A stretch of 64,000 bases of DNA from Eledone cirrhosa (Eukaryota). Every line of letters starts with the position of its first letter. Within the stretch, counting starts at the first letter, position 1. The notes under the pieces were generated by a model that searched no databases, was not told the DNA's origin, and saw nothing but the letters and a program-made list of their open reading frames with translations. Made by a program: the position numbers and the translations under genes. Of this stretch, positions 7,991 through 20,488 are shown in pieces. The DNA is taken from NCBI GenBank assembly GCA_964016885.1, contig OZ024742.1:352594001-352658000 (forward strand). Direction: 5' to 3'.

Positions 7991-8036
7991 GACAATCGTT
8001 TCTTCCGAACATTTTTTTTAGAATCATCGGAGCACT
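7991..8036 (-). ncRNA. Degenerate type I hammerhead ribozyme, possibly from the terminal repeat of the neighbouring Penelope-like element
   Basis: Minus strand: agtgct CCGATGA ttct..ggaa GAAA cgattg TC agaaat. One core change (U4C) and a weak stem I. Confidence 0.4.
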
Positions 8037-8776
8037 AGCAATATTTGTACATATAATTAACCTCCTATTAAACTGAACAATCATAGAGATACATGGATAT
8101 TAATATTGTCAACAACAGTTTCATATTTACAGAGTGGAATGGATGTGACATAGATTACAAGATTTGTACAATAGTTAAAATTAAAAATTAAAAAGGCACA
8201 TACTGGAATGCATGCGACAGAGATTACAAGGGAATAGTATAATAATTAAAGAGGCATTAACGTAGAAAGTTACTCGTAAAACGAGGACACTAGCAGTACA
8301 TATGCAAGCGTATAGAGAGTACACATGCGTTGGGGATATACAGGAAGGAAACAAGCAATGGTACTAGGCATATATAATTACTGCATGGCAAATGTATCAG
8401 TTAAAATAACAGGTTTACAAGCATATTAAGCAGGCAAAGATGTTTGTGTATTACAATTATGCGTTTATGGTGGATCTAGTGTGATGATTGTTTCTGTAAT
8501 GTTGAAACGTGTAGGTGTTGAGAGTATCAATGTTATTGCTATATTTTCCATTACATTGGTATAATTTTATTTTAGTGAATGTTTTTAATTAGTTACACTA
8601 TGGATTGTATATTGGTCCTATTATATTGTTATCCAGAGTTCGAGTTGTTGTGGAGTGATTCTTCTAACGGTTTAATTTCCGGAAGTGAGTGTGAGATCTA
8701 TATTAAGGGGAGCTAATGTGAAAGAGGAGGTAACTAGCGAATAAATTGTATATGATAGAATAAATTAGAAAAAATG

Positions 8777-9187
8777 GGAAAAGTTTATAGTTGTTTACAG
8801 TTCCAATTAGTTAAATTCTTTGTGCTAATATACATTATATTGTGTTTCAAGTGAATACCTTTTATATAATTCTATTAGTTTATATTTAATTTGAAATACA
8901 ATCTATTTTCCTATAATACATTAAAGTCTCATTATATTGTTATGTATCCATTACTGAATAATGTATAAGTAAGCTATAGGAAAAATGCATAGTTGTTTAC
9001 AGTTCCAATCAGTTAAATCTCTTGTCTGATTAATATACATTATATTATGTTATAAGTGAATCTATTATATATAATGCTATTAATTTATATATTTAATTAT
9101 ACAAATAATTTATTTTCCTATGAAAAATTAAGTGTCTCATCATATTATTATCTGTCCATTACTGAATATAATATAAGCAAGCTATAG
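8777..9187. repeat. Two diverged tandem copies of a ~205 bp AT-rich unit
   Basis: ggaaaa..tagttgtttacagttccaat..aagctatag begins at 8777 and again at 8979. Confidence 0.85.
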
Positions 9188-9399
9188 TGGTTATATTAAA
9201 TGGTGTTAACTTTGTTTATTCCTAATAGTTATTGTAGAGTATAAGGTTTGATATAAATAGGAGATAGGTAGAGGGATGAGCTGATCATATAGTGTGATGC
9301 TGTGGGCGTAATACGTATATATGCTGATAAGACCTAGAGGTGAAGTGTTAATGGTGGTGAGGAATTCAGATCTGACATTGTTATATACTAGCAGCTAGG

Positions 9400-10825
9400 T
9401 TTAAAGCTATGGAAAGAGTGTCGCTGGTAGTGTTGGCACATTCAGAACATCTCCGATTTTCTATTTAGGAGGTCTAGTTTAGAATATATTATAGTGCGTG
9501 TCTCTAGAAGACAGAGGTTACATAATATATTCGGTGGTTTATACGATGTGGCCCTATCTACTACTTCCCATTGAAGTGTATATGGTCTATTCCTAGTTTT
9601 CAGAGAGTGTATGTAGCTAGATAAAGAATTGGAGTTGGCTAGATTGCGAATTTTCAAACTGTGGAGATGCGAGTATTATCTCGTCTTGAAGCAGTTCGAA
9701 GTTGAACCGATATATGATTTAGAAGAGTTGTTTGTGTAGACCGTGCATGAGTAAATGATGTCTTTGATTAAGCAATGTTTACCTAAGGGGAAAGTTCTAT
9801 TTGTTCGACAATTACAGTTACTCTGGTTGTTTGCTTGCCGGTTACTATGTTGTGTAGATGCCTGGTTGTTAGGGATAGCATTAGGGTAATGATGGCTGTC
9901 GTTCCCGTTGTTATTAATTTCATTAGTGCTATTATCGTTATTATTATTATTGCTACTAGACATCTCTGGTAGTATGTTGCTCTGTAAGTTTACCTCCTGT
10001 TGTGATTTAATGATTTGGAAATAATTATTAATCTTCCTTTTATTACTACTAGCTATATGGTATGCGATGTTAGGTGTGGTAGAGTAAGATTTTAATGGTA
10101 TTTGTAATGATAAGATTATGGTATTTGTGACCGGCTGGGAAGTTTTTTTTCAGGATTGAGAAGAAAACGTTAGGCAAGTTGGTAGAGACGTTTAAAGTGA
10201 AAGGGGGATTGAAGAATGTATTAGTTCTTCTCCTATTTTTGTTTTTTGTAAGGTTATTTGAGGTATTGTTTATATTTCTGGTTATAATATTATTGTGGTG
10301 TTTATTCTGATGCGAGTTAAGTTTGATATTACACTTCGTATTAGAGTTAGAGTGGCGAGTACTTTTATTATTTTCCCCCATGGCCATATTGTGAGAAATA
10401 TTGTTGTAACTAGTTGATTTTATAGGTAGAAATTTAATCTAATTTAATCTGATTTAGCTAAGGCCTCATGATTGTATTGGGAATTATTGTTAAATATGGT
10501 TTCGTTATATGATATATTAGAGATTCTATTTGATATTACTTTAGTAATTGAGTTTAATATGGATTTAGGGTGGTTAGAGTTGATATCTACATAACGTAGT
10601 TTTTCGTTTGTTTTATGAAAGGGTGTATATATTTTAAACCCCAGGTAAAGGGTAGTATCAAGGAAGTTAACGTTTTTAGTGTTTTAATACCTAAGTTGAA
10701 GTTTTTGAAAATGTTATGTAATTTTTTCCTAGTTCTTTCTATATTAATTTGTTTATAGTCTATAATAAGTAGTGCATCAACGCGGTATAAACCACCATCG
10801 AGCTAGGGTAGGTTCTTATGTCAAA
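9400..10825 (-). mobile_element. Decayed Penelope-like retroelement (RT C-terminal part plus GIY-YIG endonuclease, Naiad-like)
   Basis: GLYR(V)D and SNHP RT/thumb remnants near 10790-10565, FNPPF, CNCR..PLGKHCL..IIYSCTV..YIGST..FKTR, and terminal CNLCLLE..LLNRKSE. Confidence 0.85.
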
Positions 10826-18330: not shown

Positions 18331-18920
18331 TACTTGAAGCACTGCCTCAGTCAGTATAACATTTGATACAATAAATAAACATACAATTCGGGTGTAAATC
18401 TGCGTATTTGTTTCAAATAATGTAACATAACTCGAGATAATGAAACTGACGAAAGAGAAATTGAACACCGGAATAAACATATCTAGAAAGGGATTTATAT
18501 CATTTTTAGTTTGGGTCCTTATACCTGATAGTAAACCTCATGAATTCAAACTAAAATTAGGAAAATAACACAAGTACTTGTTCTCATATATAAATGTGTG
18601 TATTTACGAAGTTTATTAATCTAATAACTTATAGATAAGTGCAACATTGTTGTTAATATTCCTGTTAAACGTGTAGCGGTAGGCTGCTTAAATACCATGA
18701 CGAAGCACGAATGAGCTAATATCATTAATAAAGAGTAAATAAAATATGATATATATCTATATAACAAGTGTGGTAAGAAACTAGGTGGACCATTATGCAC
18801 CAGAGTACTCGATACTTAGGGTAGTAGAGTGGGTAATATATATATATATATATATATATATATATATATATATATATATATATATATATATCAACTAGAA
18901 CTTGATTGGCATATATAAAA

Positions 18921-19430
18921 TATATTTAAAACAAACACATGAAACAATCACAGGGGATAATTTGGAAAGTGTGTAATCACACACAGCTAGGTAGGAAACT
19001 AATTAAAGTTTAACTAGAGCTTCAAATATTACCTTTTATGAAATGATTAATCCTCCTTGTATATATTTCATTAAATAAATATATTTCACTAAAAATCCGT
19101 AAAGTCACAGTAATTAAATCTTAGATTATCAGCAAGGAGGAAGAAATAACTGTCTGTGTTTACACATCAAATGCAAATCTGCGAGTGACCCGTCGCACGT
19201 GCTGCAATTCTAAAACTACTAACAACATGCTAGCGTCCTCCCATTGGCGTGAATATGGTGGTCGACAGCTTTAAATAGCAGCCAAGTCCTTTCAACCGAT
19301 TTAGCTCTACAATTAAGGCAATATTTGAAGCTCTAGTTAAACTGTAATTAGTTACCTACCTAGCTGTGTGTGATTACACACTTTACAAATTATCCCCTGT
19401 GTTTGTTTAATGTGTTTATTTTAAATATAT
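18921..19430 (-). mobile_element. Non-coding element with ~115 bp inverted ends and a central hammerhead, in (TA)n context
   Basis: 18921-19035 is the reverse complement of ~19315-19430; hammerhead at 19052-19140. Confidence 0.75.
19052..19140 (-). ncRNA. Type I hammerhead ribozyme with G8A core change
   Basis: Minus strand: cctccttg CTGATAA t ctaaga...ttttag t GAAA tatattt(atttaatg)aaatata TA caaggagg. Stems of 8, 6 and 7 bp. Confidence 0.7.
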
Positions 19431-19506
19431 ATATATATATATATATATATATATATATATATATATATATATATATATATATATATATATATATATATAT
19501 ATATAT

Positions 19507-20488
19507 AGGGTAGAAATGTAATCCTGGTATGTGTATATGCATTTCTTCTAACATTAATTTTATACCTAATTGTGCATGGTTGACGGTATATTTAATCGAT
19601 TTTCACGTGCTGTTGAAATATTCGATATATATTCTATGGCGGTTGGCCGCTAAGAGATTGCTGTCGTTTATTTATCCACTATTTCTTCATAGGTACCTTT
19701 TAATCTTATAGCCTGGTCTGATTGGTTTTTGTGACGTTAATTATGCTAATTGGGAGAGGAAATGGTGTATATATATTATCAAATGATTCTATGGACATAC
19801 TTTATAGTATATTGCTCTGAATATTTAATTTATTAATTCATCATTGAGTCACATCGTGAATAGTTGCCAAAACACATATATATCTGTGACTTTGTCTTGT
19901 TTATGTATATGTACATCTTTTTATTTAATAAACTCCCATAAGGTTGAGATGCAATTTGGGCAATATTGGGCTGCGCTTTCTAGCAACCAGCCCACTCACC
20001 GTAAGCAACCAATCACATTCTTTCTGACTTGACCACTGCTACGTCAGAATTCTTAGCCATTTTGAATTCGTTTCTGACGGAGATAACTTAAAAAAATCAT
20101 TTGTCCAAACGAGTTTATTTCCTGATGAGTTCGAAGCTCGGGATTTTATCCTTAATAGAATATTTCCAAATGCGACGAAACCCGAGGGTAGAAACGTAAT
20201 CCTGGTATGTGTATATGCATTTCTTCTAACTTTAATTGTATACCTAATTGCGTATGATTGACGGTATATTTAATCGATTTCCACGTGCTGTTGAAATGTT
20301 GGGTAAATTATATGGCGGTTGGCTGCGAAGAGATTGGTGTCGTTTATTTATCCACTATTTCTTCATAGGTGCCTTAATCTTATAGCCTGGTCTAATTGAT
20401 TTTTTGTGTGGTTAATTATGCTAATTGGGAGAGGAAAAGGTGTATATATATTATCAAATGATTCTATGGACATACTGTATAGTATATA
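19507..20488 (+). mobile_element. Retrozyme/Penelope pLTR-like element: ~305 bp direct repeats (period 678 bp) with a hammerhead at the repeat boundary, between (TA)n tracts
   Basis: agggtagaaa.gtaatcctggtatgtg...ggacatact.tatagtatat at 19507-19811 and 20185-20488. Confidence 0.8.
20118..20194 (+). ncRNA. Minimal type I hammerhead ribozyme with intact core
   Basis: tttc CTGATGA gttcg...cgac GAAA cccgaggg TA gaaa; GUA site after 20190. Confidence 0.75.

What the first reader, a model, noticed from the sequence alone, without database searches (positions are those of the whole stretch)
7991..20488. Cluster of dissimilar hammerhead-ribozyme elements nested in (TA)n microsatellites
Seen: within ~12.5 kb there are type I hammerhead folds at 12933(+), 13409(-)/15035(+), 19052(-) and 20118(+), plus a degenerate one at 7991(-). 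The four clear ones each lie in a different 0.4-1 kb non-coding unit bounded by (TA)n, with direct and/or inverted terminal repeats. A decayed GIY-YIG Penelope-like element is adjacent. Established: Penelope pLTRs and animal non-LTR retrozymes carry type I, often minimal, hammerheads, and Penelope insertions show partial tandem and inverted pLTRs. Inference: these are several non-autonomous self-cleaving retroelement families that target or accumulate in (TA)n, are mobilised by Penelope RTs, and would be mis-annotated as MITEs or simple repeats.
Basis: partly seen in the sequence, partly recalled or inferred. Interest (0 to 1): 0.82.

Follow-up and report, generated by a model that had tools for sequence, protein, structure and literature searches.

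The report
Penelope retroelement nest with hammerhead ends
This stretch is a pile-up of Penelope-type jumping genes and their short non-coding parasites inside TA repeats, each end carrying a hammerhead RNA motif predicted to cut itself; it is a known arrangement, and most copies here are worn while their families elsewhere in the genome keep better-paired folds.

Summary
The hammerhead-like folds are at the stated places. B (13451-/15040+) is a minimal U3-A8 motif with a 2-bp stem I. The 7991 motif is at chance level. Every local copy has a defect. Reads show that A and D are high-copy families, also present in other organisms, whose common letters restore the stems. A, B, C and E show the Penelope footprint: head-to-head arms, one with an extra 32-77-nt tail, ending in TA. 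D is a direct repeat whose family ends at a fixed site. The adjacent decayed element is a Hydra-clade Penelope, a clade already described with hammerheads and (TA)n targeting, also in octopus. Only A (467-nt period) and D (678-nt) are shown to be non-coding families. B probably ends a truncated coding element, since a GIY-YIG-like frame lies upstream. C and E are undecided. No tandem ribozyme arrays, no rearranged hammerhead, no test of cleavage or circular RNA. This scan reported the same kind of nest on several other stretches of this genome. Ordinary biology, new members.

The parts
9391..10939 (-). Decayed, 5'-truncated Penelope-like element (RT end, thumb, linker, C-terminal GIY-YIG); inferred Hydra clade; stops and frameshifts throughout
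   Evidence: 3073 relatives at E<=0.001; tblastn of 14 long relatives, pieces collinear from 10939 to about 9400; Pfam GIY-YIG only E 0.007, below its cut-off
7985..8037 (-). Degenerate hammerhead-like motif (core CCGAUGA at 8030), 1361 nt downstream of the Hydra frame; not above chance
   Evidence: 41 of 150 shuffles; 177 of 200
11814..12503 (.). Unit E: head-to-head arms (11891-12132 / 12262-12503, 232 of 240 identical), 77-nt tail on the left arm (11814-11890)
11905..12003 (-).
   Evidence: 0 of 150 shuffles; 2.7 kcal/mol from the ensemble
12391..12490 (+). Type I hammerhead of E, right arm: core 12398, one stem I mismatch, predicted cut 12483|12484
11862..11885 (-). ACTC...GAGT bulged hairpin in the tail of E
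   Evidence: lead from e1-9815236
12536..13170 (+). Unit A: 37-nt inverted arm (12536-12572), TG/TA/CA spacer, repeat R1 (12619-12703), unique part, R2 (13086-13170, tail from 13125); 467-nt period, non-coding, multi-copy
12931..13022 (+). Type I hammerhead of A: exact core 12941, extra U after A9, predicted cut 13012|13013; stem II mispaired here, G-C/C-G/C-G/U-G in most other copies
13269..15186 (.). Unit B: left arm (-) with 32-nt tail 13269-13300, right arm (+) ending 15186, arms 386 of 386 identical outside microsatellite; internal CA/TA tract 13689-14270
14509..14695 (-). Open frame resembling the C-terminal half of a GIY-YIG endonuclease, same sense as the left arm of B, stop 1058 nt upstream of the hammerhead core
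   Evidence: Atlas best named cluster GIY-YIG at 0.92, 10 of the 10 best family hits in one family or clan; no hit
13409..13456 (-). Minimal hammerhead of B, left arm (core 13451, predicted cut 13414|13413)
15035..15082 (+). Minimal hammerhead of B, right arm (core 15040, predicted cut 15077|15078)
18760..18836 (-). Orphan copy of the E tail, with the ACTC...GAGT hairpin at 18807-18830
18892..19424 (-). Unit C: long arm (-) with a tail of about 33 nt at 18892-18924, inverted 110-nt arm 19315-19424 (103 of 110 identical)
19051..19141 (-). Type I hammerhead of C: CUGAUAA core at 19132 (C3.A8 mismatch), predicted cut 19060|19059
19508..20487 (+). Unit D: R1 (19508-19812), tail to about 19871, unique part, R2 (20186-20487; 275 of 297 identical to R1); 678-nt period, non-coding, very high copy; R1 begins 5 nt before the equivalent of the predicted cut
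20116..20196 (+). Type I hammerhead of D: exact core 20122, predicted cut 20190|20191; stems I and II better paired in other copies
19814..19849 (+). GCTC...GAG(T/C) bulged hairpin at the start of the D tail; the common letters at 19821 and 19849 strengthen it
20681..20722 (+). Orphan short arm resembling the end of E; with the orphan tail it brackets C and D
10941..20742 (.). Twenty (TA)>=6 tracts that separate the units

Best explanation
The stretch is a nest of independent insertions into TA microsatellites, likely made by Penelope-like retroelement enzymes: one decayed Hydra-type element, one likely truncated coding element (B), two non-coding multi-copy families (A, D) and two stumps (C, E), each carrying a hammerhead motif that is predicted, not shown, to cut its RNA. 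Mechanism, step by step: (1) a Penelope protein nicks both strands of a (TA)n tract (inferred; shown in vitro for a lizard element in AT-rich DNA, PMC11167929); (2) it starts reverse transcription at two fixed internal sites of the RNA, one from each DNA end, which gives head-to-head arms of which one has an extra tail (the anatomy is shown here; the cause is inferred from PMC11167929); (3) copying usually stops early, so 3'-end stumps far outnumber hammerhead-bearing copies (shown for D by depth); (4) every hammerhead-bearing arm runs across the predicted cut site, so the template was uncut or re-joined RNA (inferred); (5) local copies then decay while the family keeps the fold (shown for A and D). 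D and E share a tail hairpin and likely use Hydra-type enzymes; A, B and C lack it and may use other Penelope clades.
For: Tail asymmetry in A, B, C and E, with all 11 outer ends examined running into TA-rich sequence. Fixed ends across other copies: for D, 139 reads in X23, 42 contigs in X1 and 2 in X4 leave at 19812 into (TA)n, and 4 contigs leave at 19871; for A, read ends pile up at 13125, 15 against a depth of 17 in X21 and 9 against 16 in X22. Multi-copy: A 544 contigs (X1), 610 and 463 reads, 3 contigs in organism B; D 2792 contigs, 2168 reads, 46 and 21 contigs in organisms B and C. Stem-restoring common letters: A 12949 G in 48 of 78 (X21) and 31 of 51 (X22) reads, 12983 G in 223 of 229 and 217 of 227; D 20117 G in 113 of 118, an extra A after 20174 in 43 of 75 (X23). 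With these letters the hammerhead becomes the predicted minimum-energy fold of A, and the cost for D falls from 10.3 to 2.0 kcal/mol. Adjacent RT-GIY-YIG element with Hydra-type relatives. Published Hydra elements insert into (TA)n and carry hammerheads, Hydra-1_Obim of octopus included. The U3-A8 core, the extra nucleotide after A9, palindromic stem III and opposite-strand pairs 100-700 bp apart are described for Penelope hammerheads. Tail hairpin in 3 of 7 tails (2 of 5 families) against 102 of 20000 random positions.
Against: No genome was available, so copy numbers, flanks and linked covariation could not be counted; the read tables give single-column letters only and showed 40 of 123 (A) and 40 of 120 (D) variant rows. 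The extra A after 20174 is a minority in X1 contigs (depth 129 of 1238). No sequence link between any unit and a particular autonomous partner was shown; C against the 3' region of the Hydra copy scored 30 (null maximum 26, 0 of 300 shuffles), but that is one of 110 AT-rich comparisons. The GIY-YIG reading of the B frame rests on one Atlas lead; five other searches found nothing. B is predicted to prefer an inactive fold as a monomer (14.7 kcal/mol). Whole tails do not fold better than shuffles (z from -1.8 to +1.7). D has no inverted arm here.
Confidence: 0.85

Rival explanations
1. All units are non-autonomous retrozymes that move through ribozyme-cut circular RNAs copied by rolling reverse transcription.
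For: A and D have fixed non-coding periods (467 and 678 nt) and the tail-to-unique junction recurs in other copies (joint 13126 to 12686 in X22; contig over 19850-20012 and an organism B loose end at 19878). D's first repeat starts 5 nt before the predicted cut. R1 and R2 of D share 7 of 16 listed departures from other copies.
Against: No unit has two same-strand hammerheads, which the published definition asks for. The periods exceed the roughly 300-bp monomers of PMC7229834. B has a probable endonuclease end. In A the two repeats differ at 16 of 77 positions while the inverted arm differs from R1 at 2 of 35, which fits a linear R1-U-R2 template at least as well. No pile-up of starts at the D cut site among the rows shown (354 loose-end rows hidden). 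PMC11167929 found uncut RNA to be the main substrate in vitro.
Confidence: 0.25
2. All units are only truncated pLTR/3' ends of autonomous Penelope elements; there are no separate non-coding families.
For: It fits B (frame at 14509-14695), and C and E cannot be told from stumps; PMC4209133 reads most single motifs as truncated Penelope elements.
Against: A and D return to their own repeat after 467 and 678 nt, with no Hydra-profile hit or recognisable endonuclease frame between, and that junction recurs in other copies and, for D, in another organism.
Confidence: 0.15
3. The units are MITEs or local fold-back duplications, and the hammerhead folds are chance.
For: Inverted ends in TA; Rfam finds nothing; the 8030 motif is at chance level, and B is on stems I+III alone.
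Against: The arms are asymmetric with one-sided tails. A, C and E-left were matched by 0 of 200 shuffles, C and E-left by 0 of 150. Family letters restore the stems, and 2 of the 3 organism-B contigs laid on A match only its hammerhead.
Confidence: 0.04

Closest known systems
Hydra clade of C-terminal EN+ Penelope-like elements, e.g. Hydra-1_Obim of Octopus bimaculoides (Craig et al. 2021, PMC8557442; passages, section 11 and supplement searches seen)
   Same: RT followed by a CxCx5C-type linker and GIY-YIG with CxxC and CxH motifs; (TA)n insertion; type I hammerhead near the 3' end; inverted 5'-truncated copy and one-sided tail as described there for Penelope elements in general.
   Different: The window copy is broken and lacks its N-terminus. 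Its nearest sense hammerhead-like motif is 1.36 kb downstream and at chance level, whereas Hydra-1_Obim has its motif at 2403 of 2507 nt. Tails of D and E (about 60 and 77 nt) are longer than the 30-40 bp given there. None of four 12-letter hammerhead motifs from A, B, D and E was found in the supplement text (long cells are cut there).
[quoted passage not shown]
   Same: U3-A8 core (B, E), extra nucleotide between A9 and G10.1 (A), palindromic stem III (B, D), 2-bp stem I (B, as in Drosophila virilis), opposite-strand pairs, mostly single motifs of truncated elements.
   Different: A and C have a full 7-bp stem III hairpin and long loop II, closer to the fungal and protist monomer-stable variants of that paper than to its metazoan minimal type.
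Metazoan non-LTR retrozymes (PMC7229834, passages; Li, Clavereau and Pollet, bioRxiv 10.64898/2026.07.22.740005, part 1 of 5 and passages; supplements not seen)
   Same: Non-coding, AT-rich, multi-copy repeats with a type I hammerhead, proposed to derive from and depend on Penelope elements (A, D).
   Different: Here 1.2-1.5 units with one hammerhead, not tandem arrays; periods 467 and 678 nt against about 300; no RNA evidence.
Poseidon element PAc of Anolis (Frangieh et al. 2024, PMC11167929; parts 1-2 of 4 read)
   Same: Both DNA strands cut and extended, two internal start sites delimiting the tail, AT-rich target, uncut RNA as the main template.
   Different: A different clade, tested in vitro; nothing was tested biochemically here.
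Type-SGC permuted hammerheads (Eckert et al. 2023, PMC10085705; passages)
   Same: Earlier notes of this scan report such a motif in (TA)n-inserted repeats of this genome.
   Different: Not found in this window: every accepted motif has the ordinary type I order.

Membership tests
Type I hammerhead ribozyme | Core CUGANGA (or U3-A8), GAAA and UH in type I order | tested here: met
   A and D exact, B and E U3-A8; not met by the local C copy (C3.A8) or the 8030 motif
Type I hammerhead ribozyme | Three helices around the core | tested here: inconclusive
   Met by C, nearly by E-left (G.G at 15.2/16.2), and by A and D with family letters; B has a 2-bp stem I and needs a dimer for stem III
Type I hammerhead ribozyme | Covariation of stems across copies | tested here: inconclusive
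   Common letters restore pairs, but linked two-sided changes cannot be read from these tables
Type I hammerhead ribozyme | Site-specific self-cleavage | not testable with these tools
   needs a transcription assay
EN+ Penelope-like insertion | Inverted 5'-truncated copy and one-sided tail | tested here: met
   A, B, C, E; D has no inverted arm but its family has a fixed end at 19812 and a second near 19871
EN+ Penelope-like insertion | Partial-tandem direct repeat (pLTR) | tested here: met
   A (R1/R2) and D (R1/R2); absent from B, C, E
EN+ Penelope-like insertion | RT plus GIY-YIG frame in the same unit | tested here: inconclusive
   Met for 9391-10939; only a GIY-YIG-like lead for B; none seen in A, C, D, E
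Hydra clade (element 9391-10939) | C-terminal GIY-YIG with CxCX5C linker, CxxC and CxH | tested here: met
   The window has CxC, CxxC and CxH, with the third linker cysteine replaced; 113 of 150 relatives have CxC..CP
Hydra clade (element 9391-10939) | RWK and DKT motifs in the N-terminal part | tested here: inconclusive
   That part is missing from the window copy; among the 4 relatives over 600 aa, 3 have RW[KQR] and 3 DKT (1 DKS)
Hydra clade (element 9391-10939) | Canonical hammerhead near the 3' end | tested here: inconclusive
   Only a chance-level motif 1361 nt downstream; may have decayed
Hydra clade (element 9391-10939) | Placement in an RT tree with named Hydra families | not tested
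   Compared by eye with the supplement alignment only
Metazoan non-LTR retrozyme (A, D) | Non-coding multi-copy repeat with type I hammerhead | tested here: met
Metazoan non-LTR retrozyme (A, D) | [quoted passage not shown] | tested here: not met
   One hammerhead per strand and unit in this window; other loci not examined
Metazoan non-LTR retrozyme (A, D) | Monomer of about 300 bp | tested here: not met
   467 and 678 nt
Metazoan non-LTR retrozyme (A, D) | Expressed as linear and circular monomer RNA | not testable with these tools
   needs RNA data or RT-PCR
Type-SGC permuted hammerhead | Blocks in S-G-C order with pseudoknotted stems | tested here: not met
   A search of all six block orders on both strands found no SGC hit at the cut-offs used; that search was strict and also missed A, B, D and E, so a decayed copy could escape
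MITE (DNA transposon derivative) | Symmetric terminal inverted repeats reaching both ends | tested here: not met
   One arm always extends 32-77 nt further

The most novel reading that the evidence does not exclude
D is a 678-nt non-coding parasite of Hydra-clade Penelope elements, twice the usual retrozyme size and shared by three organisms. It borrows the Hydra tail hairpin as its start signal and is copied from a ribozyme-cut, re-joined circle, so that copies begin at the cut site, as its first repeat here does to within 5 nt. The two-armed insertions also carry (TA)n and CA/TA tracts of their donor along (inner ends of A and B), laying down new targets, so that these nests seed themselves.
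Probability: 0.2. Interest if true: 0.55.

Novelty: new member of a known kind. Interest (0 to 1): 0.27.

Why it matters
As it stands it matters for annotation: such units look like MITEs or simple repeats, and Rfam misses every one of them. What hammerheads do for Penelope elements is still called unclear (PMC8557442). High-copy non-coding families with monomer-stable folds (A, D) and a very young insertion (B, identical arms) are convenient material to test it, but the same can be done at many other places in this genome that the scan has already flagged.

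Tried and rejected
No own genome held. Rfam: 41 matches at E<=1, all below their gathering scores and mostly microRNA models on microsatellite, no hammerhead. ARAGORN: none. Permuted hammerhead search: 2 hits, C in type I order and one SCG hit at 56117-56264 inside a LINE frame, which I set aside as chance. 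Metagenome scan with a D motif: 4 loci, none matching beyond 20-28 nt, rejected as chance. Viral contigs: nothing for an A motif or for the B frame. Word-based protein searches found nothing for the Hydra piece or the B frame; Pfam, PHROGs and PDB sequence searches found nothing for the B frame. Four peptide motifs were not found in the Craig supplement, whose long runs are cut. Pfam gave no RT or GIY-YIG hit for 7 Hydra-type relatives. Look-ups of earlier findings by sequence, nearness and relatives gave nothing relevant. The constrained folds of B, C and E used wrong positions and are discarded; one search replaces them. The joints 'goes back 640/671', and most of those, follow from the duplicated R and are not counted as tandem evidence. 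I first took the adjacent element for Neptune from a recalled motif and dropped that. Whole-tail folding as a general start signal: not better than shuffles. The 5-nt coincidence of D's start with the cut has about a 1.6% chance per end (11 of 678), with about ten 5' ends in view, so it is not significant alone.

Full report
Setting. The window is AT-rich animal DNA made mostly of decayed non-LTR retrotransposons. No assembly was held, so family evidence comes from two read layings (2 of 5 units). All 20 (TA)>=6 tracts of the window lie between 10966 and 20742.

Are the ribozyme folds there? Rfam finds none. Descriptor searches and constrained folds give the following. A (core 12941+) has an exact core and long stems I and III, but a mispaired stem II. 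C (19132-) has three good stems but a C3.A8 mismatch. D (20122+) has an exact core with weak stems I and II. With a three-stem score, 0 of 150 shuffles reached C or E-left, 1 reached E-right, D or B, and 41 reached the 8030(-) motif; A fell below the stem II cut-off. On stems I and III alone, 0 of 200 reached A, C or E-left, 3 reached D, 19 E-right, 101 B and 177 the 8030 motif. The descriptors were post hoc, and one equally scoring hit lies in a LINE frame at 6334. Cost of the hammerhead shape against the free ensemble, in kcal/mol: C 1.8, A 2.2, E-left 2.7, E-right 6.3, D 10.3, the 8030 motif 12.6, B 14.7. B's stem III can form as a dimer (self-duplex -8.3). A search of all six block orders found no type-SGC motif, though it was strict.

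Are they families? For A (12640-13150): 544 contigs of X1 (29/104/196/215 at 99+/95-99/90-95/under 90% identity), 610 and 463 RAD reads, and 3 contigs of organism B, 2 of them on the hammerhead only. G at 12949 (48 of 78 and 31 of 51 reads; depth 1970 of 2052 in X1) and G at 12983 (223 of 229, 217 of 227) give stem II G-C, C-G, C-G, U-G behind one extra U, and the hammerhead then becomes the minimum-energy fold. For D (19600-20270): 2792 contigs, 2168 reads, 46 and 21 contigs in organisms B and C. G at 20117 (113 of 118) adds a stem I pair. An A after 20174 (43 of 75 in X23, the one X5 contig, but only depth 129 of 1238 in X1) completes a 5-bp stem II. A at 20141 (89 of 93) removes a competing helix, and G at 20159 (81 of 83) restores a hairpin in loop II. 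The cost falls from 10.3 to 2.0. Only 40 of 123 and 40 of 120 variant rows were shown, none in the cores. The tables are column-wise, RAD reads come from a limited number of loci, and X1 may be the source sample. So the local copies are decayed members of families with better folds; linked covariation was not shown.

Anatomy. E: arms 232 of 240 identical, left arm 77 nt longer. B: arms 386 of 386 identical, tail 32 nt. C: 103 of 110, tail about 33 nt. A: a 37-nt inverted arm, a TG/TA/CA spacer, then R1-unique-R2 with a tail from 13125, where read ends pile up (15 against depth 17; 9 against 16). D: R1-tail-unique-R2, ending where 139 reads and 42+2 contigs leave into (TA)n, with a second end near 19871 (4 contigs); X1 depth is 115,000-262,000 over 19738-19852 against 4,000-13,000 over the hammerhead, as expected from heavy 5' truncation, although depth is no copy number. 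An orphan E tail and an orphan short arm bracket C and D, which suggests nesting. This is the structure that Craig et al. describe for Penelope insertions (inverted 5'-truncated copy, tail at one end) and that Frangieh et al. explain by extension of both strands from two internal start sites. All seven hammerhead-bearing arms (A, B twice, C, D, E twice) run through the predicted cut, so their templates were uncut or re-joined; Frangieh et al. found uncut RNA to be the main substrate in vitro.

Who is autonomous? The broken element at 9391-10939(-) has 3073 relatives at E<=0.001. The 14 long ones align collinearly from RT to GIY-YIG and carry Hydra motifs (definitions). A published octopus Hydra family has (TA)n preference and a hammerhead. 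In B, an unbroken frame at 14509-14695(-) stops 1058 nt upstream of the left-arm hammerhead and resembles the C-terminal half of a GIY-YIG nuclease: best named Atlas cluster 0.92 with 144 of 256 features shared, 10 of the 10 best family hits in one family or clan (one search is the same source). Searches found nothing. I read B as probably (about 70%) a very young, 5'-truncated coding element with a microsatellite in its 3' untranslated part. A and D return to their own repeat after 467 and 678 nt with no such frame, and the junction recurs in other copies, so they are non-coding families. C and E are undecided. Following a lead from earlier notes (e1-9815236, e1-8665533), I found an RCTC...GAGY bulged hairpin just behind the short end in D, E and the E orphan (3 of 7 tails; background 102 of 20000). 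The two differences between E and its orphan within the hairpin fall in the loop and bulge of the orphan's fold, although E's own minimum-energy fold is a different one. The common D letters at 19821 and 19849 strengthen the hairpin from -2.7 to -5.8 kcal/mol. That it marks Hydra partners is those notes' claim, which I did not test against Hydra sequences.

Comparison with the literature. U3-A8 cores, the extra nucleotide after A9, palindromic stem III, 2-bp stem I and opposite-strand pairs are in PMC4209133 (parts 1-2 of 4). Retrozymes as Penelope derivatives are in the 2026 preprint (part 1 of 5 and passages; supplements not seen) and PMC7229834 (passages). A and D work like these but fail the tandem criterion here and are longer. 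Searches for hammerhead plus octopus (4 listed), Penelope plus non-autonomous, microsatellite and cephalopod (2 listed) and insertion preference plus tail (2 listed) showed no paper on these families by title or abstract start; repeat databases could not be searched. The scan has reported nests of this kind elsewhere in this genome (for example e1-10310392, e1-8665533, e1-8664228), which is not independent support.

Verdict. Real, partly as described, and explained by known Penelope biology: new members of known kinds. The open points are cleavage, circular RNA, the start of D five bases before its cut site, and whether arms carry microsatellite along. Interest 0.27.

Noticed in passing
window 55127-58741 (+), with copies across 1-4500 and 44500-64000: A 1204-codon open frame with endonuclease-like, RT-like and zinc-finger-like parts, in an array of related non-LTR elements that end in (ATT)n; it looks Tx1-like (name recalled, not tested).
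   Followed up: no
window 4690-7480 and 24000-42340 (-): Many nested copies of non-LTR elements with RT and restriction-like endonuclease motifs (R4/NeSL-like by recall), mostly bordered by (ATT)n or (TTA)n: a second microsatellite-linked pile beside the TA nest.
   Followed up: no
window 9317-9362 (+): A decayed minimal-hammerhead look-alike (CTGATAA core, short hairpin, GAAG), antisense to the Hydra frame and about 70 nt past its end; three defects, may be chance.
   Followed up: partly
window 8774-9187: Direct repeat of about 200 bp (81% identical) downstream of the Hydra frame; the part around it aligns weakly with the hammerhead half of unit C (0 of 300 shuffles, but one of 110 AT-rich comparisons).
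   Followed up: partly
window 12657-12697: The tail of A's first repeat differs from the second repeat at 7 of 9 positions listed and forms a stronger hairpin (-7.2 kcal/mol, z -1.8); unexplained.
   Followed up: partly
window 12694-12747: Depth peak (up to 46,000 in X1 against about 1,000-5,000 beside it): a short motif probably shared with another repeat family.
   Followed up: no
window 16363-17108 and 17130-18600 (+): A 750-bp (TTC)n/(TCA)n tract followed by what looks by eye like a heavily decayed LINE RT; no Pfam hit.
   Followed up: partly
window 11050-11170, 11370-11660, 22010-22206: Short repeats that resemble, from recall only, tRNA-derived SINEs of octopus genomes; 22094-22206 has a copy at 26123-26235 (88%).
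   Followed up: no
window 21344-21398 and 21718-21772: A 55-bp inverted repeat, 98% identical, 320 nt apart, outside any TA tract.
   Followed up: no
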